The notes under the pieces were generated by a model. The model searched no databases and was not told the origin of the DNA. It saw only the letters and a program-made list of their open reading frames with translations. A stretch of 64,000 nucleotides of DNA from Psilocybe cubensis (taxonomy: Eukaryota), in contig CM038998.1 in assembly GCA_017499595.2 (NCBI GenBank), forward strand, positions 4,092,001-4,156,000. The letters are read 5' to 3'. Of this stretch, positions 19,664 to 31,358 are shown in pieces. The translations under genes were made by a program, and so were the position numbers. Positions within the stretch are counted from its first letter, which is position 1, and every line of letters begins with the position of its first letter.

Positions 19664-22600
19664 ATGGACAAAGAAGCTGGCACAGAACATGTGCCACAGA
19701 AAGTATCCACAGAGCCTGAAGGATTGGACAAACTCTTTCCATGGCTGAAACCTGCATTGCGGTCGAGACGGACGATTAAGACATGGATTCGATGTTGTAT
19801 TGCATTGGCGACGACGATGATGCTTATGGTGGCCACGAAGCCTGCGCATACGATGGGCCAAGCTGCATTCTTCTGCGTGTGAGGACAATTGTACACAGAA
19901 ACGCGCCCGTCTACTGAAGTTATTGTCTCAAGAATCGTGGCCGTGATGTTACCTCCAACGTTTGCTCTATCGGTATTTTTGATGGCTGCGACAACGTTGC
20001 TAGTTGGTATGTCTCTCTAGACATGAAAATGCATGCTTGAAATTATAACGAATAGGTATGCTTCTGGGATGGGCATGGGGTAGTGCTGCCATGGCTTCAG
20101 CCCTGTCTGTTCGCAGCGCGTCTTTGTTTGCCCAGCAGTCACAGACATTGAAGTCTTTGTGAGTTTAACAAACGTATTCTTCGCCTTTGGCACTGATATT
20201 TGCATAGACTGGATCCCACAAGTCCCATCCCAATTGCGAGACAGATTCAAATCCACACTTTCCATGGCATTTTTCTTGACCCACGGTTAGTGAATCCGTC
20301 GTTTCGTTTTACGGGTTAATTAACTGTAGTGTGTGCCAGCTCATCGGCGGTTTACGGCGCCTTTCTATTTATTGGTACATTTGCAATGGGAGCGTTGAGA
20401 GCGTATCTTCCGAGCTTGACGCTGCTGAGCGTCTTTGGGTCGATCGTAATGGATGTGGTAAGTTGATCTGTCAAAAAGATGCAGTTGAAACGCCTTAGAT
20501 GACCGTTTTACAGGCGTGTACTACAGGGCCGCGTGAGTTTTTAAATAAGATCACTATTGCAGCTCTAACTCCCAGTGCAGTGCTACCAACTGCACAATAT
20601 ACCATCCCTGAACAGCTTATCATCCCTACAACCTTCTATGTTGCGGTCGCGATTGGGACTGTTATCCTTATCTTCCCAGAGAGCTTGAGCCACGTTTGGC
20701 TGTGAGTGTGTTTAGCTTTGGCCAGAAACCTAAACTGATAAGATTATCCAGTACGCTGTTATTGGAATCGTTCTGGACCAAGACTCTGGATCTGCTGCGG
20801 TTACAGTCCGAGACACTTGCCCTCCGTCCATCAGACCATGAGGCTTGGACCAAACTGAATGCTCGCGGCACACAATTACGCACCAGTCTGGTTGCTGCGA
20901 CAGATGCAGTTTCCGACCAACTCAAGTTAATCGACTTGGACACATCGATTGGCCGTTTAGGTCCAGCAGACCTTAAGAAAATCAATTTGGAACTGAAGTC
21001 GATTATGTTTCGTGCTAGGTGAGATATTAAGAGTGCGACGCCCAAGATATTAAGTGGTTCTCACGTATGGAAAGCGAGACTGTCAAGCCTCGAAAGCCGT
21101 TGCCAAACATTCTCGGGTTGTCAAGCCGTGCACACTTGGCAAACTCTCGGCAAGCAAAGACTCCGTGCACCTAGTGCCGTCAAAAAAATAGCTAGAATTT
21201 AATAAGAGCAGGTCATCTACAGTAGTATACAATATATACACAATTTCTCCGCTACGTGGTGCACATATAAAGAACATCCATGCAAAAAAGCAGGGATGTG
21301 GTGCTCCCGCGCAGCTTGTGCGCCGTTTTAACCCCTGTCGGAGTTTGATAGGAGTCAAAATATGAATGGCGCGAGCGGTCCGCTAGTGGCGCCCGTGGGA
21401 CTTGGTGTAAAATAGCTGCTTTTGATTGCACGCAACGTGAATAACCTTTCAAGAGGCCTACTCTCTTTCATAGAAAGACTTTATAGTACTGTATTGTGCT
21501 GATATAAACATAATAGACCGTATAGTGTAGTTTGTACCAAGTAATTATGACTTGAATTGAGAGTATCATATATAGTAACTTTTTTTATATCAGTACATCC
21601 TCGCCCTCGTCTTCCTCGTTTTCATCATCTGTAAACTGAACCTCATCAATTTCTAGCTCTCCATCATTCTCGTCCATTGCATCAAGTATCCTATAATGCT
21701 CGTTATCTAGCAAACAATCAGATATAAAGAAAAGATATTTTGGTAAAGCATACCTAGCCCATGACCATTATTAACCCCACCCATGTAATAGGTTCCATCA
21801 CTTTTGGAATTGTCTATCCCACCAAACAGATCTCTTCCTTGAGGCTTGAAAGAATTCTCATTGTCTTCATTGTCTTGTAGCTCCATTGCCTCGATATAAA
21901 CTTGACATTCTTCAATAAAGTCCACAGCATTGTCAAGATTTTCAAAGCGGTAGAGAAGTTCAGAATACACCTCCCATATATTCTCCGAAGTAAGTACTGG
22001 ACTTTCCATACTTTGGTAAAGTATATCAGCATAGTGCTTGAACTCTGGTGGGACTAGTTGAAAGACTGGGTCCTCTGGAGGTGCAAATATTTGTCTGACT
22101 TCATCAATAGCTTCCTGGCTAACCTGAATCTACAGCATTTGTTAATACTGGTTATAGAAAAATTTACAAACAAATACCTTGAAGTCCAAACATCCATATC
22201 TTTCAGGAAACAGATGTATATGTTGAGGAATGCCATGTGGAAGTATTTTATTTCGGTCAGATCGTTTTTGGGTATTGTTGACCATATCTGTCCATGCATC
22301 AAGCTCAACTTGAAGAAAAGGAATAAACAGATATCTAAACACAAGGCTTTTGAGAAGGTATAAGTAAGATATGGAAATTAAGATTTTAACCAGCTTACAG
22401 ATCAAGAGGACGTCCTATGTCATATAAACCATTGTTAACTCCATAATCCAATAAATCTTCAAATCCTGGAGTAAAGCGACTGCGAAGTTGAGACCAGGAT
22501 ATTTCAGGTTTTATGTTCTTTTTCTTGCGCATCCAGCGATGTTGAATTGTACCAATTAGCCTAGGGTCGTGCATATGTCGCAGAGTGGTTTGGGCATTTG

Positions 22601-25600
22601 CAATCCCATAGTTTTCAGATCCAGGATCGCTTTGAGTAATAAGGGGAATGCCTGCAAAATATAACAATTAGAATTAATTATCAAACAGTTTGGAACAAAG
22701 CTTACACTTGTTCTTCTCAACAACATTCAAATAATAAGAAGCAATTAACTTTGGATTGCTATTTGTCCACCAAATCTTGTACCAATGAATATATCCGTCA
22801 AATGGATCACCTCCATTGTGCAAGGCAAGCCCAAACCGTTTCCACTTATCATGCTGATCAACAGCAATTATATCATTGACTCCAGCTGCCCAAAATCGCC
22901 TACGACGCAGACGACGTGCTTTGCGTTCTCGAATAAGCTCTGGCTCATATACTCGGAAGTAGACAACAATTAAATCGCTATTTTGATTGTCATTAAAAGC
23001 AATATATAGGTATAATGAGCATTTACCGTGGTACAAGCATTCCATAATGATGAAATAAAAGGGACCCCATATCACGAGCACCAGCCTTTGGAAAGCGTTT
23101 TCTAAGTGCAACCATGCTTTCTTTGATGCTTTCCACCGTATGACCTTGTTGTCTTGCAGAGAGCAAACCTAATCTTCGACGTATGGCCTTGTATGAAGTT
23201 AGACTAAAATAGTTAGCATATATATTATGTGTAGTTTAAGGTGAATACATACCCAATGCCATAGATAGCTCTGTCAATGTGCTCTTCTTGAAGTAATTTT
23301 ACTACTTCAGTGTCGGGCTTGCGCATTTTCCAATACAGAAAAATGTGAGGTGCAATGTCCTCAATAGGCGCTAGTTACAGGCATGTCAATATTGTTCACC
23401 CTTATAACTTAAACATTTACTCACGAAGTGGCTTAAACTGGTTTTTTTGCGGCATGTTGCACAATTTTCTGTCTTAAAAGCATTGTCTTTTATAGGATTT
23501 CAATGAATAACTAAAGACTCTACTCAAATATTACAGATTGTATTGAAAGAATCAAACAATGTACGACCACCTACTATTGTCCATTTAATTTCAAATGAAG
23601 TATTTCAAATTCCATAAAAATCACAACATTATTGCGAGAGGATGATGCTTATATTTGCTATTATAGCCAATAAAGCTCTAATTCAGATTCTAGCGCTCGT
23701 CATCTCATAGAATATGGTAAATTTACCAAGACTTAATTTGTTCTCGACCTATAAACCATGTCTAGAATCAATAACTAGACCTTTAATATTTCATATGTTT
23801 GAAATAAATAGTAGGAATAAGGGAAATTGTTGCGTCAGATTGCAGAATAATGGCATGCAAATGATAGATTGCAGAACAATAGCATGTAAATGATAGAGAA
23901 TTACGTGAAAATAGTTAATATTGTCAAGATATTTTCCTAGAATGGTGTAATCTGAAGTTAGTTTAAATATATCTAGTGCATTCATTGCGAAGTTTGTCCA
24001 TTTTCATTCCCCATATCAACCAATTCTATGTCTTCTGGTAATCTTCACATTAGCACCCAGTTTACTGAGGATGTTATTGCAAGAACACCATCTAAATGCG
24101 AGCGTCCTAGCTGTCAGGCCATTATTCAAGTTGGAGACCAGCGCATCTATTTGGCCTCTCAGAATCCAAATGTTTCTGGCAAATATGTGTGTAAAGCTTG
24201 CTTTGACCACTATGCTAGAAAAAGTGTCACTTTGGCCCGTGTAGTGCATGAGGATTCCGGTAAGTCTGACTTTAACTTTGATGCTATGTTTTGGGCGCTT
24301 ATTTATATACTAGCATCATCAACCTCAATTCAAACGAAACAGAGAGAGGAAAGCAATGCTGTTGCATCTGGTATATGTCCTTTTATATAATTCTAAGATT
24401 ATCACTTATTATATCCACTTATTAGCCAAACTCACTCCCGTTTCTGCAAGACTTATTAACATATCAGATGTTCAACAAATGATTAATGAAGGGCAGCGTA
24501 AAGGTATGCTTTGATATTCTCATATTATTATTTATACTAATAAATTTAGGAGCAAATACACCTCAAGGCCGTGTTACTTCTATGCCGCCTTCTTCTTCTT
24601 CCGTTGTTGGAGGGCCAAATATCCACAATCCATCTTATTTCCAAAACTTTTTTAGTCACCATTCTACACCATCTATTTCGGCTTCAGGATACTCTGCTTC
24701 TCATGCATTATATGCTCAAGAGCACAAGCGTTGGTCAACTGCAGCTTATAAAGGATCTCTTGCTCCTGGACAAATTCCTGTAAATGCACAAACAAAGGCA
24801 ATGGTTCCCATTGTTGCTGGTGTTGGGTATGAGCTTCTTTTAGGGAAGACTGAACAAACGGTCAGATTTATCACTTTATTAAATGTTCATTTAGTAATTT
24901 TACTTTCTAATATTACATTAGGGAATTAAGGAAGGTATCTCTGTGGACTATGGTCTAACTCCGCAAGAACTTGCACAAGCAATTCGGTCCTGTGTAATCA
25001 AACCTCTGACCAAGCTTTTTCCTGGGTTTCCGTGGGACTTTTCCAAGTCCCGTGTCCGAGAAACAGCAATTTGGCAAGATATTCTGGCAAATAGGGATCT
25101 AACTGAGCCTTATTTCCAGGGTCGATTTCTCAAAGCAAAATCGGGAAAATCTGCTGCTGGTACCTACACATTTTCTCCCCCAAACAAACCGGTTTCCTTC
25201 ATAGTCATTATTGACCGAAATCAATGGATTGAGGCAGAAAGAATGACACAAGATTCTGATGCTGCATATGTCCCTGTATGTTTACAATTCTTTTAAATTG
25301 CTATTAAACCCACTGATTAAGAGTTTTTGCAGGAACCTAAAAGGCTTATTGAATCCGTTGCTTCTGACTCTTCTGAGAAGCATACACATCAACATGATCA
25401 TGCGTTTCCACTTACCCGGAAACGTAAAGAACTTGCTAGTCCCTATTCAACTACAGACAATTCTGATATTCGAAAGCGCAGAGAACCTGCTAATTCCCAT
25501 CAGACTATAGATACCTCTGATGCATTTTCTACTCTATCATATGTTGAAGACGAGTATTCTTTTGATAAAAAGGTTAGCAATATTTTTGGGCAGTAATATT

Positions 25601-28600
25601 CACTAACTTATATATATATAGAATCAGAACAACACAAACAACACCGGAGAATCCGTTCAGTTCAAGTCATTGGATGCAAATGAAGTTACACGTGGTTTGC
25701 TACTTGGTGGCCAACAAAGTGTGTTAGAGTTAAAGCAACGATGTATGTCCAATCTTATTAAAGATGACAGCTTTCTAATGTTTTTTCTAGTTGATGCGAT
25801 CCGTATTGAATCCATACTATGCTATCCAATTGTCTTTACACCTTTTCACGATCTTGGAAGCAACAATCAGTCCTCGATTATAAGCAGCAAAGGGTATTTT
25901 GCTCAATTATCCTTCAACGACCACACAGACTTTATTTCAAAAGGTGGATTCAAAACAGCACATAGTGCCTTGTTGGAATGGACATCTGCAAGTCCTTCTG
26001 GCCTCCTTGGATCATGGTTGACGTCTCCAATCTCTATTGCTATGAAGCGGCTATATACCCAGAGAAAGGATCCTAAAACTGGCGCTATGGTTCTCAAACG
26101 GTTCGCATATGCCGATGAAAGCATCAAGACTTTGATGGAGGCCACTTCTCTCGCCTATGCAGACTCTATTTTACAATTTGCATACGGTTTTATTAACAAC
26201 TTTCTCAATAAGCAGGGCAGCAATCTCGATTCGGATGATCTTCCCTTTTCAATTCCAAAGCTTCGATTTGTTAAGGCATGCATTGCTTATTCATTTGGAA
26301 AAGGCAAACAGCAAGCAGCCTCAACATCCTACTCCGCAGCCTATCTTCTCGAAGAACTCATCCCAACAGAACTGCCTTTTATCAAGTACATCCATAATGC
26401 AGACGCCGTTCCACTTCTTGAAGAAAGCGAGCCAGGATATGACACATCAAAGTTCCTTTGCTTTGTTCAGCATGTGCAGTTTGTCGAGTCTCATGGTCAA
26501 GTTTTTCTCTCAGACTTTCAAGGTGCCGTGATTATTTCAATATTTGTTTATGTGGAATAACTGACTTATGTGCACATATAAGGCGCTGGAGACTTGTTGA
26601 CGGACCCACAGGTTATGACCCATCCGTAAGCAACTTGTAAATACTGGCTTGAGTTTATGCTAATACATTCTGTAGCAAACTTAAAGACGGCAATGGCAAT
26701 CCATTGCAAAATCTCTTTGGTGAAGGCAATGTTGAAGAAGCATTCATGAAATTTCCATCTCAGCACAAATGCAACGAGTACTGCACTTGGTTTGATCTGG
26801 AGCCCATCAATACAGAATAGATATACAGAATGACTATTAGTCTGATTAGTATGCCTTAATCTTAAACAATCGCCGTTCTTGTTTCTCAGAAACTGTCTGC
26901 CCATATCCACTTGAGTAAAGTTGTGCTGACTTTCGTAAATTATAATATGAGGTAGACATAAAAAAGAAGATCAATTACTCTGGTGGCGCTAGCGTATTTC
27001 CGTGCCCGAAAATTTCTAGGCCACCAGCAATGAAATTTCTTTTACATCTATCTCAGACCAAAAGCAGCCGTCAACAAAAGACACTTGCAAAAAGAGTAAC
27101 AGCTGCCCCAGCTGCCTTATTCTCAAAAATACTGCCTTTCACGGATGGATTGGCATAACCTCAATGCATACACAAATGTCTTCAGCGCAGACTATAGTGG
27201 CATGCCACAAGCATACACAAAAGCATCTCTGCCTGGATGTGCACGCTCCATCCAACACCGCCACTACGGACTGTGGTGTGTTCACTACGGAGCGTGTATG
27301 CGCATGCAGAGTTGCCGGTACAAATGTAGGCAGATATATGGGAACTGAAGGCGTGCCACGCTATACACCGTCACACAGTGCAGCTACAAAGCAAGCGCGG
27401 GAACACGGGCAGAACCACAAGGTGAATGCACGGCCCTACTGGCCAACTGTGTATGTGAAAAACTCCTATGCGGCATGCAGGCGCATGGCATTATTGTCAG
27501 TGTTGCCCATGTGTTGGAATCAAATCAGAACGCACCGTAGTGACCCAACACCCAGAGAGAGTTTCTCCCTTCTCATTTTCCTCATTCCAATAGTCATGGC
27601 ATGTGCGCAAAAATACGCAATCCAGCGCTGCACGATGCAATTCTTCTGGCACAGCAGGTTTGATTGACTGTCGCTCACACGATAACCCTGGCCCAGGGAT
27701 GATCCTTGGTGTTATCAAGTGAGCGACAGGATTGCAAACACGATGGCCGGGAAAGCCTCGAGTGAAAGGCGCAAGAAGTGGTCGGGTTGAGGCGCCCAAA
27801 CAGGAGTGCTACAGCTTGGCAATGGCTGAGACGACGGTGCCCAGACAAGTTGAAATGCCACGCAAGCGGGTTTCCGGGGTCAGGTTGTGCCTCTGGATCA
27901 AACAAATACCCGGCAAGCTCACCCGGTCAATGTTTGGCAACGGCTTTTGAGGCTTGACAGTCTCGCTTTCCATACTCACGCCGTGTCAAGTGGTCTACAC
28001 TCGTTTCAATCTTTCGTAAACGATTCCAATATCGCATTGCAGAAAGAGAAAAGTGCGAATGTCCCGCAGGGTGGTCGATACCACGCGCTTTCTCGGCGAA
28101 TCAGAGATCGCGAGCTGAAACATGGACATGATCTTGACTCCCTTGTACCCATCCTGGCATCATCCTCGTTGAACTTGCGCCAAGCATCAGAGTCGGCTAT
28201 TGTTTGTCTTGTTGATTGGTTCCAAGAATGTAATAGCCACAGGTGGATGGCGTTCATCTCGAAGTCGTCGCCAGAGTCGATCGCGAAGCGCCACGAGAAA
28301 CTGGTGAAAGAGCTCGAAAATCTGCAGAATGCGCTGACGGAGTTCAGAACGGTTGAAAGAGTACAGCTAATCAAGCCATATGAACGATTTTTCGACCCAA
28401 AAACGAGGTTGCTTCTGACCAACTGCGATATGTTCACGTCGCGGTAAGTATATATATTTCTGCTCAGGTCTTCTGAATTGAATCCCTTTTTTCTTTTCCC
28501 CTTATACAGCTCGCTTTACATTTGTTTTGTTTTTATCGACACCATTGATGCCTTTTCAGAGGCAATCGTCAAAATGCTGAAAATCGTGACTGAAATTGAT

Positions 28601-31358
28601 GCGCAAAGACCAAAGCCGAAAGTGTGGTTCCCTGGACGAATTGTTAAAGCCTCGCAGAATATCACCAACAGTGACTTCAAAGATGTAGATGGCCCTATAG
28701 CTCTAGGGACATCACAGAATCCGGTCGTCTTTTCTAGTAATGAGAGTTCACAAACCAGCTTGACCGAATCAGAGTCGGACGATGAAGACGAGGAATCAGA
28801 AGAAAAGAAAAGGAAAGAATTGGATGATCAGGCTTGCCCAGCGGAACCACCAAGTAAACATCTTATTTACCTTGAAAGCAATTGCGTACTTGCTTACACG
28901 CATTAACTGTCACAGAAAAGCAAGACCCTGATGCTTTCCCTCCTACAACGGCATTCGGACGCATGGTTGTGAAAGTTGCTCCTTTCTTCAGGTTCTTCAA
29001 ATCCCCTCAAGGTATATTTGCACTGCGAATGGGCATTGTTTCAGTAGCATTATGGATACCCTCTGTGTGCCACTCATCGGCGTGGTTTTATTACGACAAT
29101 AAAGGGTTGTGGGCGCTTATCATGGGACAAGTAAGCGCACACCAGCGATTTTTGTCTGAGGGCAGTTATATACTAATTCTATACAGATGGGATTAGCAGT
29201 ATACGCTGGAGATCAGGTAAGCTTGTTTGACATATAAATGGCTGGAACCTGGTTGAACTCGGCACTTTAGATCGCTGGATTCATCGTCAGAATAACAGGA
29301 ACACTGCTCGGATTAGTTGGCCAGTTCTTTGCTGTCAAGTCGGATATAACGTCCACTAATACTGATGCCACTCTACAGTTGGATTGGTTGTCTGGTACAT
29401 TGGGGCAGGCCATGGGCACGGAAACCCTTACGGACTCGTGATTGCAACGGTCTGTTCAGAGTGTCATCCATATCAAAGAATTTCCTATACTTATTGATTT
29501 TTTTTTGGCGTGTGTAGACTTTAATCGTTTCTCCATTTTTGTTAGCGCGTGTCGCTGCATCTCCAGCGCAAGTTGGGATGTTCACAATGCTTTGCGTCAC
29601 GACGGTATTCGGTACCCGTTTTCAATCGTTCAACCATCTGTCAGTGAACTGATACATGGCTTCTATTAGTGGTAGGCTATAGCTGGGTCAATGCAAATAT
29701 CGACGTTATCTCCAATCCCGGCGTTGGTGTCACCTTGGGGTGGAAGAGAGCGTGAGCATACTCCACTTGATCATATGCAACCTCTTGACATAGATGAACT
29801 CTTTAAAATAGTTTGCTCGTCATCATTGGGTTCACAGCGGGCGTACGTATCTTCGGAATAGTCCAATTGACACCTCATCTGATATGGTCCCAACATAGTT
29901 CATTGTAATGCTGTTCCCCAACCCAATATCATCCCGTGTCCTGGTCCGCAAAACACTAGCCGCAGTAATAAGCGAGTCAGGAAATATCTTTGCAGGGGAG
30001 GTTGAAGCGTTCCTCAGCGAAGAACAAAAGGGCAGAAGCGGCATTTATGAAAAAATCGAACTCGTGGGTAGAGCAGAGCCTGATGATAAAAAAGTATCGC
30101 CGAAAGAGAGAAGAATCAGAAGGATTGCGAGAAGGGTTATCGCTGTCTCAGTAAGTTTCCTGTATCCATTGTTCAAGTGTTTCCTATTGGACAAATATTC
30201 AAGATCTTTAATGAAACCTACAGCATAGGCTGCGGATGATCGCCCCGTCGCTTTCGACGGCTAAATTTGAACCTCAGATTTCGTGAGTTGTCGTTGATGG
30301 TTTTGCATCAGTACCCGGTTTGAGACGACGATATCCGACAGAGGAAGGTGGCCACAAGAGCAGTATGAAGAACTTCACAGGATCCAGTACGTGATCTCCG
30401 AAGATATATTGGGTTGAGATTCCAACTCTTTCGGCCCACAGAGTACGGATACTAGGATCACTCGCTCTTCTCACCACGTCATTTTCCAAACTGGACACCA
30501 AATGGTGCAGCGCATTGGTCCATCGGGTAAAGTTTTGTATGTCTTGATACCCATGGATCAAAAACTGACCACCCGTAACCAGTCGCCCTTTATGAATCCA
30601 AATTTTGCAAGTTTCATCCCCCCGCCGCGCTCTTCGAAGTCTTACTGATCAATCTATAAAAACAGTTGTCCGATGTCTTCTCGACGATTGCGATCGTGTC
30701 GACCTCCCTAATGGAGGGCCGGCCACTTCCTGCATTTCTCCCGAGGTTGAGGGACCGCCTTTTGTACCATGATTATCACGCGGCCAAAGCGACGAAATCT
30801 ACTCTTCGACAAGGCAATCTTTTCCCTGGGCACATTCGTGACGGGGGAGACGAGGTAAAAGAGGAAAAGAGTATTCACACAGATTCAACCTCCGAGCTGT
30901 TAAACAAGGGGGACAAGTCGGGTTTCGAGAGTGAAGAAGACTTAGGGGCTGCTGCTGGACCCATGCATGTCGATGGTCATAGTGTAGGTATTGAGCTCGA
31001 CGAGCTGAATTTGGACATGTTACTGGTATGCTTTCTTCGTTGAAATATTGCTGTCCCCATTGACTTTGTCGCAGAATGAACAACTGCCGGCGCATTCAAC
31101 TGGTAATGCGTCTTTTTTTAGGCAGAGCTATTAGCTGACTTTTGCACTGTCGTAGCCGTGATTGCCCTCTCAAGCCTCCTTTTCGTGAGTCTGCTTTGCG
31201 TTGCTAAAATAGTCCAATCTTACGTTTTACAGCGCGTCGACGAGATGATTGATATCACGCGTACTCTTTGCGGCCAGGCCACCTTCCGTGGCTATGAAGG
31301 GCTTCAACAAGACTATCTTGATAGAGAGGAAAAAGCGATAGGTGGGGTGAGACCTTGA
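19664..31358 (+). CDS. ArAE/FUSC-type (aromatic acid exporter, BRE4-like) multi-pass membrane protein, with a transposon in one intron
   Basis: KTWIRCCIAL...MGQAAFF, ILIFPESLSH, DTSIGRLGPADL, then after the insertion SGLHSFQSF, FALRMGIVSVALWIP...FYYDNKGLWALIMGQ, MLFPNPISSRVLVRKTLA, AKFEP. Frame joins GCT AG|T GGT across intron 21019-27990. Confidence 0.8.
21066..21111 (+). repeat. Left terminal inverted repeat (46 bp)
   Basis: TATGGAAAGCGAGACTGTCAAGCCTCGAAAGCCGTTGCCAAACATT. Confidence 0.95.
21585..23455 (-). CDS. Integrase-core (RNase H fold) DDE transposase, 8 exons, about 490-500 aa
   Basis: Manual splicing gives an open frame MPQKNQFKPL...RKRFPKAGARDM...RRLRRRRFWAAGVNDIIAVDQHDKWKRFGLALH...DPFDGYIHW...QSDPGSENYGIANAQ...NIKPEISWSQLR...acidic tail DEGEDVLI*. 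Confidence 0.9.
23837..23894. repeat. 2 x 29-bp tandem repeat in the divergent promoter region of the transposon
   Basis: AGATTGCAGAATAATGGCATGCAAATGAT / AGATTGCAGAACAATAGCATGTAAATGAT (3 mismatches). Confidence 0.85.
24028..26820 (+). CDS. Alpha-kinase (eEF2K/MHCK family) with N-terminal Cys4 motif, about 10 exons, transposon-borne
   Basis: ISKGGFKTAH (P-loop), AMKR, LMEATS, LRFVKAC, YLLEELI, FIKYIHN, FVQHVQF, LSDFQG, LTDPQV, FGEGN, HKCNEYC (C-terminal Zn site). Stop TAG 26818-26820. Confidence 0.9.
27929..27974 (-). repeat. Right terminal inverted repeat (46 bp)
   Basis: Reverse complement TATGGAAAGCGAGACTGTCAAGCCTCAAAAGCCGTTGCCAAACATT, one G/A difference from the left TIR. Confidence 0.95.

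What the first reader, a model, noticed from the sequence alone, without database searches (positions are those of the whole stretch)
21060..27980. Intact IS3EU-like DNA transposon carrying a full-length alpha-kinase
Seen: 46-bp TIRs starting TATGG, a 6-bp TSD CTCACG, and two divergent spliced genes without evident stops or frameshifts, an integrase-type DDE transposase and an alpha-kinase with all catalytic and Zn motifs. Knowledge (from memory): TAY..RTA termini with a 6-bp TSD match the Repbase IS3EU superfamily. Alpha-kinases are expanded in some mushroom genomes, but an atypical protein kinase is not a standard part of cut-and-paste elements. Inference: this is a two-gene kinase-transposon in which the kinase may regulate the transposase, counter host silencing or act as an effector. 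It could also be a vehicle for alpha-kinase family expansion.
Basis: partly seen in the sequence, partly recalled or inferred. Interest (0 to 1): 0.92.

Follow-up and report, generated by a model that had tools for sequence, protein, structure and literature searches.

The report
Active mushroom transposon carrying a kinase
This is an intact, recently mobile IS3EU-type DNA transposon of the mushroom Psilocybe cubensis whose second gene, an alpha-kinase, turns out to be a standard, co-inherited part of this fungal transposon group, though what the kinase does is unknown.

Summary
Window 21066-27974 is a 6,909-bp element with 46-bp TIRs (TATGG..CCATA, 1 mismatch) and a 6-bp TSD, CTCACG.

It holds two divergent, intact, spliced genes. 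One is a 505-aa integrase-fold DDE transposase. The other is a 770-aa alpha-kinase. Both are identical to annotated Psilocybe cubensis proteins.

Other strains carry the precise empty site, a joint skipping 6,915 bp. The reference annotation shows three kinase+transposase pairs. The element is therefore young and mobile. It sits in a 57-nt intron of an ArAE_2-family host gene.

The kinase is not a one-off capture:
- 19 of 21 metagenome contigs with at least 3.5 kb upstream of a transposase homolog carry a kinase homolog there on the opposite strand.
- All 9 contigs with a detected TIR pair contain a kinase, and 6 of them have perfect 6-bp TSDs.
- Kinase and transposase distances co-vary (Mantel 0 of 5000).

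The pairing is already in print. Kojima 2025 (PMC12730594) notes opposite-oriented transposase and alpha-kinase genes in IS3EU. I file this as a new member of a known kind. The kinase's role remains untested.

The parts
21060..21065 (.). Left target-site duplication CTCACG
   Evidence: The empty-site joint 21059>27975 has 6 ambiguous bases in runs X9, X5 and X13.
21066..21111 (+). Left terminal inverted repeat, 46 nt, starts TATGG
   Evidence: It is 82-86% similar to termini in metagenome loci L001, L004, L006 and L024.
21585..23455 (-). DDE transposase gene. The CDS has 8 exons: 23455-23425, 23370-23253, 23203-23027, 22977-22706, 22651-22399, 22346-22178, 22129-21754, 21706-21585. It encodes 505 aa.
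   Evidence: Gene model. Identical to P0002 and P0129 of P. cubensis. PF24764 rva_4, 32 bits. Model residues 142-335 align to the HIV-1 integrase core at Z 9.4-9.9, rmsd 3.1-3.4 A, about 140 residues. D149, S207/D208 and P248/E249 are conserved in 25 homologs.
23456..24027 (.). 572-bp AT-rich region between the two start codons; presumed bidirectional promoter (inferred)
   Evidence: Gene models. GC is 0.34 in 23001-24000. No promoter test was run.
24028..26820 (+). Alpha-kinase gene. The CDS has 10 exons: 24028-24259, 24314-24370, 24426-24503, 24550-24860, 24922-25275, 25333-25572, 25622-25742, 25791-26522, 26583-26625, 26676-26820. It encodes 770 aa.
   Evidence: Gene model, equal to P0124. 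PF02816, 64.3 bits. Foldseek E 3e-12 to MHCK A and TRPM7 kinase domains. K550, H692 and D706 are invariant and D716 is nearly invariant in 20 homologs.
26821..27928 (.). About 1.1 kb of non-coding, GC-richer sequence between the kinase stop and the right TIR; function unknown
   Evidence: GC is 0.51 in 27001-28000. No Pfam hit for its 215-aa ORF. No Rfam hit. No similarity to related elements except the TIR. Contigs of X5 and X9 break here with foreign continuations.
27929..27974 (-). Right terminal inverted repeat, 46 nt, ends CCATA
27975..27980 (.). Right target-site duplication CTCACG
21019..27990 (+). Host-gene intron that received the element. It is 57 nt when empty. The insertion point is 10 nt upstream of the 3' splice site.
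   Evidence: The spliced contig of run X10 joins 21016>27989 (GT..AG, cut +2) and has four further GT..AG joints. The downstream exon hits PF10337 ArAE_2_N at 28.8 bits.

Best explanation
Window 21066-27974 is an autonomous, recently active cut-and-paste DNA transposon of the IS3EU superfamily in Psilocybe cubensis.

Shown:
- It has 46-bp TIRs and a 6-bp target duplication.
- It is absent from exactly this site in other strains.
- The annotated genome holds several near-identical copies.
- It has an intact DDE transposase with an all-helical N-terminal region and an RNase-H/integrase catalytic core (D149, D208, E249).
- It has an intact alpha-kinase transcribed divergently from the same 572-bp spacer.
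- The kinase is an old, co-inherited component of this fungal transposon group, not a local capture. It lies next to the transposase in most related elements, inside their TIRs. Its gene arrangement follows the transposase tree. Its divergence tracks that of the transposase. Its ATP-binding, catalytic and zinc residues are kept at about 30% overall identity.

Inferred:
- The transposase binds the TIRs through its N-terminal helical domains and moves the whole 6.9-kb unit.
- The kinase is kept because the element needs it. Most likely it is an accessory factor that phosphorylates the transposase or a host chromatin, repair or silencing protein.
- Its conserved N-terminal zinc ribbon and a possibly ubiquitin-like middle domain may act as the targeting part.

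No step of the kinase's action has been shown.
For: TIR, TSD and chance control.

Empty site: a 6,915-bp skip with 6-base ambiguity in X9 and X5 (1 contig each) and X13 (16 reads, 12 starts). X13 also has 40+51 and 44+59 reads that run from the element ends into other, mutually different flanks. These indicate further insertion loci.

Three pairs in the P. cubensis annotation, by consecutive accessions: KAH9481781/2, KAH9487316/7 (identical to the window) and KAH9486129/30. They differ by 1-4 residues.

Family features match the printed IS3EU description (PMC12730594 and PMC10045372, passages).

Transposase: PF24764; integrase-core fold at Z 9.4-9.9; 314 of the 327 candidate proteins scored E<=0.001, and the named ones among the 120 rows listed come from Agaricomycotina fungi.

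Kinase: PF02816 at 64 bits; Foldseek E 3e-12; invariant K550, H692, D706.

Pairing:
- A kinase homolog lies upstream on the opposite strand in 19 of 21 loci with >=3.5 kb upstream, 27 of 35 with >=2 kb, and 31 of 44 with >=1.5 kb.
- All 9 loci with a detected TAYGG..CCRTA TIR pair enclose a kinase, and 6 of the 9 have perfect 6-bp TSDs.
- Locus tags are consecutive in Arthromyces matolae (H0H93_012194/5) and Hypsizygus marmoreus (Hypma_007523/4).

Co-divergence: 20 linked pairs give Pearson 0.81. After dereplication, 16 pairs give 0.67, and 0 of 5000 permutations reach it.

Selection: among the element variants listed, coding changes are 7 synonymous to 4 non-synonymous, and none of the non-synonymous ones lies in the kinase domain.
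Against: - No evidence of expression of either gene. The only run that proved to be RNA (X10) laid nothing on 21424-27886. Contigs cannot show absence.
- No evidence that kinase and transposase interact.
- Some relatives lack an adjacent kinase. L061 and L062 (transposase 32% identical) have none within 9 kb and 3 kb upstream, yet nest inside a kinase-bearing clade. The kinase can therefore be lost, or those copies are decaying.
- 13 of 44 loci with >=1.5 kb upstream show no upstream kinase hit. Two of these, L044 and L046, carry one downstream; most of the rest have short flanks or distant transposases.
- The variant table was truncated (100 rows not shown), so the 7:4 count is a sample.
- Clade membership among Repbase IS3EU transposases could not be tested, because no Repbase sequences were available.
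- Adjacency in other species rests on locus-tag order or shared contig length, not on DNA.
Confidence: 0.85

Rival explanations
1. The kinase is a passenger. A host alpha-kinase gene was captured by an IS3EU ancestor and is carried along without benefit to the element; it only inflates the host's alpha-kinase family.
For: DNA transposons in fungi do pick up genes passively. PMC12730594 argues this for TET/JBP genes (passage). L061 and L062 seem to have lost the kinase. Non-catalytic parts of the kinase evolve fast: about 30% identity against 45-69% for the transposase.
Against: A useless passenger should decay. Instead the catalytic Lys and Asp and the zinc ligands are invariant or nearly so across 20 homologs. 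The full three-part architecture is kept. The pair co-diverges. All 9 TIR-bounded relatives keep the kinase. Gene order is clade-specific.
Confidence: 0.2
2. The kinase serves the host, or acts on other cells, rather than on transposition. It could be a stress or defence signalling enzyme, or part of an addiction or drive-like function that makes carriers of the element favoured.
For: An alpha-kinase gene was listed among 46 genes under diversifying selection in wheat stem rust (PMC4150398, passage). The family is reported as highly expanded in rusts (PMC4469406, table: 79 and 39 copies in its two rust-genome columns). The IS3EU-derived Styx/REP9 elements of Zymoseptoria carry extra genes tied to fungal phenotypes (PMC8232023, PMC10853768, passages).
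Against: I noticed no N-terminal signal-peptide-like hydrophobic stretch when reading the protein, but no predictor was run. The insertion here is polymorphic and intronic, with no sign of fixation. There are no data on phenotype.
Confidence: 0.12
3. The structure is not a mobile element but a conserved host gene pair that happens to be flanked by an inverted repeat.
For: Only one copy is present in the 64-kb window.
Against: Precise empty sites exist in three other runs, reads from other loci end at the same termini, and the annotation holds three pairs. Six related elements have different perfect 6-bp TSDs.
Confidence: 0.01

Closest known systems
IS3EU superfamily of eukaryotic DNA transposons (Repbase; Kojima 2023 PMC10045372, Kojima 2025 PMC12730594), in particular the TET+ IS3EU families of rust fungi and Tuber indicum
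   Same: 6-bp TSD, TA..TA termini of the form TAYGG..CCRTA, TIRs over 30 bp, a DDD/E transposase without an HHCC zinc motif, and a first catalytic D 100-300 residues from the N-terminus. Transposase and alpha-kinase genes lie in opposite orientations (passages).
   Different: No TET/JBP dioxygenase gene lies between the two genes; here only a 572-bp spacer does. The host is an Agaricales mushroom. No paper in the searched library links Psilocybe with IS3EU. Whether this family is already a Repbase entry could not be checked.
Styx / REP9 element of Zymoseptoria tritici (PMC8232023, PMC10853768)
   Same: IS3EU-related integrase-type transposase, TIRs, 6-bp TSDs, and recent activity in a fungus (passages).
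   Different: Styx/REP9 has four genes. The passages seen mention no alpha-kinase, and 'kinase' occurs 0 times in PMC8232023. It is an ascomycete element described as a distant member.
Alpha-kinases with solved structures: Dictyostelium myosin heavy chain kinase A, TRPM7 (ChaK1) kinase domain, eEF2 kinase, ALPK1
   Same: Same catalytic fold (Foldseek E 3e-12 to 1e-8, TM by target 0.58-0.69). The ...DxQG..., TDPQ and HxCNxxC motifs align with MHCK A.
   Different: The N-terminal zinc ribbon plus middle domain are not found in those proteins. The gene lies inside a transposon. No substrate is known.
Bacterial IS3/IS481/IS21 transposases, TnsB and retroviral integrases
   Same: RNase-H-like DDE catalytic core (IstA Z 10.6, TnsB Z 10.3, HIV-1 integrase core Z 9.9).
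   Different: Sequence similarity is too low for phmmer against PDB (no significant hit). The gene has eukaryotic introns. There is a long C-terminal extension with an acidic tail.

Membership tests
IS3EU superfamily (DNA transposon) | 6-bp target-site duplication | tested here: met
   CTCACG is present on both sides. The empty site holds a single copy in three runs. Definition from PMC12730594 and PMC10045372.
IS3EU superfamily (DNA transposon) | TA..TA termini (TAYGG..CCRTA) and TIRs longer than 30 bp | tested here: met
   TATGG..CCATA, 46-nt TIR with 45 of 46 matching.
IS3EU superfamily (DNA transposon) | DDD/E transposase with an integrase-like core, no HHCC motif upstream, and a first catalytic D 100-300 residues from the N-terminus | tested here: met
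   PF24764; integrase core fold; D149, D208 and E249 conserved. There is no Cys in the first 150 residues of P0129 (read).
IS3EU superfamily (DNA transposon) | Transposase falls in the IS3EU/GingerRoot clade in a phylogeny with Repbase and IS-family references | not testable with these tools
   No Repbase or ISfinder sequences were available. Only indirect support: shared termini, TSD and gene content.
IS3EU superfamily (DNA transposon) | Two protein-coding genes (in fungi: transposase plus alpha-kinase in opposite orientation) | tested here: met
   Gene models. Literature statements in PMC8232023 and PMC12730594.
Alpha-kinase family (PF02816) | Profile match above the curated threshold | tested here: met
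   64.3 bits against a cut-off of 21.3, covering profile positions 8-185 of 185.
Alpha-kinase family (PF02816) | Catalytic Lys, catalytic-loop Asp (DxQG), metal-binding Asp (TDPQ), Gly-rich FGxGN loop, and His/Cys zinc ligands | tested here: met
   K550, H692, D706 and G709 are invariant. T715, D716 and Q718 are at >=90% in 20 homologs. The motifs align to MHCK A. FGEGN and HKCNEYC are present in P0124. Assigning roles to these residues follows the known MHCK A/TRPM7 literature (recalled).
Alpha-kinase family (PF02816) | Alpha-kinase three-dimensional fold | tested here: met
   Foldseek E 3e-12 and probability 1.00 to 5dyj and 1ia9. The kinase-domain part of the model mostly has pLDDT 75-93.
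Alpha-kinase family (PF02816) | Protein kinase activity | not testable with these tools
   Needs a biochemical assay.

The most novel reading that the evidence does not exclude
The alpha-kinase is an obligatory, element-encoded cofactor of IS3EU transposition in fungi. That would make this the first cut-and-paste transposon group known to need its own protein kinase. In addition, the 'alpha-kinase family expansions' reported for rust and mushroom genomes would be largely counts of IS3EU copies rather than host signalling genes. A further lead: the N-terminal zinc-ribbon plus ubiquitin-like module, not the kinase domain, may be the ancestral second protein shared with animal IS3EU (weak Atlas leads to cnidarian and chordate proteins).
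Probability: 0.3. Interest if true: 0.75.

Novelty: new member of a known kind. Interest (0 to 1): 0.45.

Why it matters
IS3EU is one of the least studied superfamilies of eukaryotic DNA transposons. [quoted passage not shown]

This copy is complete, polymorphic between strains and present in a cultivable mushroom. It therefore offers a natural starting point for the first functional study of an IS3EU element and of why it carries a kinase.

The analysis also gives a cautionary reading for comparative genomics. Alpha-kinase 'gene family expansions' in basidiomycetes may in good part be transposon copies. This needs a genome-wide census.

Tried and rejected
- Whole-genome search of the window's own assembly: no genome is held. 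Copy number therefore rests on protein records and on laid runs.
- RNA evidence: no RNA holder was listed. X10, guessed to be RNA and confirmed by five GT..AG joints in a host transcript, laid no contig on the element body. It laid only a 179-nt contig on the left end with a foreign flank. This says nothing either way about expression.
- Complex prediction of the transposase with kinase residues 1-345: 'no answer', score 0.01. It is not evidence for or against binding.
- Co-variation of percent identity over 8 species pairs taken from protein records: Spearman 0.30, p 0.12, inconclusive. It was replaced by the test on physically linked pairs.
- phmmer of the transposase against PDB sequences: no meaningful hit. 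Foldseek alone gave no hit at E<=0.001; the fold came out only with VIA-align.
- Word-indexed searches with the kinase found only 1 hit and 6 hits, because the protein diverges fast. The exhaustive search found 981.
- Rfam on 20500-28500: nothing.
- A third gene in the 1.1-kb right-hand region, or in the longer relatives: only unconvincing ORFs, no Pfam hit, no cross-similarity.
- Earlier findings of this scan: nothing relevant.
- Kojima 2019, the review cited for 'two proteins', is not held.
They may list agaricomycete IS3EU families.


Full report
**1. What is in the sequence.**

TATGG starts at 21066 and CCATA ends at 27974. The 46-nt arms differ at one position. The 24-nt TIR start occurs only at these two places in the window, and none is expected by chance. 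CTCACG flanks both ends (21060-21065 and 27975-27980). The element is 6,909 bp and is the only copy in the window. Its body is AT-rich (GC 0.34-0.41), but the right-hand 1 kb has GC 0.51.

**2. Genes.**

- Minus strand: I built an 8-exon model. Its introns are 47-54 nt, all GT..AG, and it encodes 505 aa.
- Plus strand: I built a model that became 10 exons once the database protein showed one more 48-nt intron, at 25743-25790. It encodes 770 aa and is identical to P0124, named 'Myosin heavy chain kinase C [Psilocybe cubensis]'.
- The transposase model ends with P0002 (JR316_0001389). P0129 includes my first exon.
- The window is therefore Psilocybe cubensis DNA, or something indistinguishable from it at these genes.
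- The two start codons are 572 bp apart and face away from each other.

**3. Domains and folds.**

Kinase:
- Pfam Alpha_kinase scores 64.3 bits.
- The AlphaFold model has mean pLDDT 63. The kinase-domain part mostly has pLDDT 75-93. It hits MHCK A and TRPM7 kinase domains at Foldseek E 3e-12.
- The DxQG, TDPQ and HxCNxxC motifs align with MHCK A.
- In front of the kinase domain the model shows a zinc-ribbon-like C-x4-C...C-x2-C unit (residues about 20-63), an invariant GYS..H motif, and a beta-rich middle domain (205-340). These are separated by disordered linkers.
- The middle domain gave only weak ubiquitin-like leads: PI3K Ras-binding domain at E about 0.01, and RnfH and Rad60-SLD rows with TM under 0.6.

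Transposase:
- Pfam rva_4 'Integrase core domain' scores 32 bits.
- The model has pLDDT 76.5, with a confident all-helical N-terminal part (13-139).
- Its core (142-335) superposes on the HIV-1 integrase core at Z 9.4-9.9, rmsd about 3.2 A, about 140 residues. IstA and TnsB score Z 10.3-10.6.
- D149, D208 and E249 are conserved in 25 homologs.

**4. Mobility.**

I laid four public runs on 20300-28700.
- A joint from 21059 to 27975 skips 6,915 bp with 6 ambiguous bases. It appears in one contig of X9 (a differently labelled organism), one contig of X5, and 16 raw reads from 12 starts in X13. This is the empty site with a single CTCACG.
- In X13, 40+51 reads at the left end and 44+59 at the right end continue into other, mutually different flanks. 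The element therefore sits at other loci there.
- The P. cubensis protein records show three kinase/transposase pairs with consecutive accessions. They differ by 1-4 residues. In one pair the kinase is truncated, and its 3' part is annotated five accessions away.
- Among the element variants listed, coding changes are 7 synonymous to 4 non-synonymous, and 15 are non-coding. The table was truncated, so this is a sample.

**5. Insertion site.**

Run X10 yielded a 2,670-nt contig with five GT..AG joints. It is a spliced host mRNA. One joint spans 21019-27990. Without the element that intron is 57 nt, and the element lies 10 nt upstream of its acceptor. The next exon matches PF10337 (ArAE_2_N, putative ER transporter). 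I cannot tell whether X10's strain carries the insert. It therefore stays open whether the 6.97-kb intron is spliced.

**6. Is the kinase a regular part of the family?**

Records:
- The transposase has many relatives: 314 of the 327 candidates scored E<=0.001. The named ones among the 120 rows listed are Agaricomycotina.
- The kinase has 981 representative relatives at E<=0.001, and 69 at E<=1e-30. Several cover the whole length at about 30% identity.
- Of 20 kinase clusters looked up, 19 hold named members, all from Agaricomycetes; one is an unnamed fragment.
- Two named kinases have locus tags consecutive with a listed transposase: Arthromyces matolae H0H93_012194/5 and Hypsizygus marmoreus Hypma_007523/4.
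- Seven more kinases in six further species share a contig length with a listed transposase: Gymnopilus, Galerina, Hebeloma, Pisolithus albus (two), Mycena citricolor and Roridomyces. The Gymnopilus contig is only 62.9 kb.
- For the remaining named kinases no match was found among the 120 transposases listed.

DNA:
- A metagenome scan with the transposase alignment returned 80 loci.
- A kinase homolog lies upstream on the opposite strand in 19 of 21 loci with at least 3.5 kb upstream, 27 of 35 with at least 2 kb, and 31 of 44 with at least 1.5 kb.
- Exceptions: five loci (L020, L044, L046, L051, L079) show a kinase hit downstream on the same strand, the L020 hit being a single N-terminal match that the domain HMM did not confirm. 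L007 has the kinase convergent. L061 and L062 have none nearby.
- Nine loci have a detectable TAYGG..CCRTA TIR pair around the transposase, and all nine enclose a kinase. Six of them have perfect but different 6-bp TSDs.
- On a transposase tree the divergent arrangement fills two large clades, one of which holds the window copy. The tandem and convergent forms sit together on a separate long-branched clade. The kinase-less L061/L062 nest inside a divergent clade.
- Distances between transposase cores and between kinase domains of physically linked pairs are correlated. For 20 pairs Pearson is 0.81. After removing near-duplicates, 16 pairs give 0.67, and 0 of 5000 permutations reach it.

Together this shows an old, jointly inherited gene pair.

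**7. What is already known.**

All of the following are passages I saw, not whole papers.
- PMC12730594 (Kojima 2025): IS3EU have 6-bp TSDs, TIRs over 30 bp and TAYGG..CCRTA ends. [quoted passage not shown] - PMC10045372: gives the TA..TA termini, the 6-bp TSD and the lack of an HHCC motif.
- PMC8232023: described IS3EU encode two proteins, citing a 2019 review that is not held.
- PMC4469406, PMC5295586 and PMC4150398: report expansion of, or selection on, alpha-kinases in rusts. The passages seen do not mention transposons.
- Literature searches: 'alpha-kinase' + 'transposon' + 'transposase' found 2 papers. 'alpha-kinase' + 'Agaricomycetes' found 2. 'Psilocybe' + 'IS3EU' found none. No paper found deals with the kinase's function in the element.

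**8. Verdict.**

The identification as IS3EU with a DDE transposase and an alpha-kinase is right. The claim that the kinase is an unusual cargo is not. It is the family's normal second gene and has been mentioned in print. What remains open, and interesting, is why a cut-and-paste transposon keeps a catalytically intact alpha-kinase for so long. I favour an accessory role for the element itself (inference) over a pure passenger. I rate the finding as a new member of a known kind, of moderate interest.

Noticed in passing
L044 241-6856, L051 143-5960; also L020, L046, L079, L007: A separate, long-branched clade of related transposons shows the alpha-kinase downstream of the transposase on the same strand (convergent in L007; in L020 only a single N-terminal hit that the domain HMM did not confirm), not head-to-head. 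Two such elements have 40/40 TIR matches, but I found no matching 6-bp TSD at the ends I picked. Their true termini may lie further out.
   Followed up: partly
L061 9876-11669 and L062 3217-5010: Two contigs with a 32%-identical transposase have no kinase domain within large flanks. Yet they nest inside a kinase-bearing clade, which suggests secondary loss of the kinase or decayed copies.
   Followed up: partly
window 26821-27928: The 1.1 kb between the kinase stop and the right TIR is GC-richer (0.51), non-coding by every test, and unlike the matching part of related elements. Contigs of X5 and X9 break at about 26990, 27027, 27660-27720 and 27906 and continue into other sequence, so parts of it are repeated elsewhere in those genomes.
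   Followed up: partly
window 26700-26738: In raw reads of X13, 80 and 78 reads match only this 39-nt stretch (the FGEGN region of the kinase) and continue on both sides into one other, uniform sequence. This is probably a paralogous alpha-kinase gene or a rearranged copy.
   Followed up: no
P. cubensis records KAH9486124 and KAH9486129/30 (P0123, P0122, P0127): In the third annotated copy the kinase protein breaks off after residue 611 of the intact protein. Its C-terminal part is annotated five accessions away, as if another insertion with about four gene models had split the kinase gene.
   Followed up: no
window 20862-21142 and 27606-27886: Depth over the TIR-containing bins is about twice that of the element body in X13 (about 63 against 36) and higher in X5. 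This hints at additional TIR-bearing, perhaps non-autonomous, derivatives.
   Followed up: no
P0124 residues 1-345: The ESM Atlas gave weak leads (scores 0.77-0.80, TM 0.26-0.30) from this N-terminal zinc-ribbon plus middle-domain part to unnamed protein clusters of Cnidaria and Chordata, phyla in which IS3EU elements are reported. It may be worth testing whether animal IS3EU ORF2 is related to this module.
   Followed up: no
P0010 (Panaeolus cyanescens CVT24_001149): One annotated transposase homolog carries precomputed Pfam hits to conventional protein-kinase domains (PF00069/PF07714) at its C-terminus. This is probably a gene-model fusion with a neighbouring gene.
   Followed up: no
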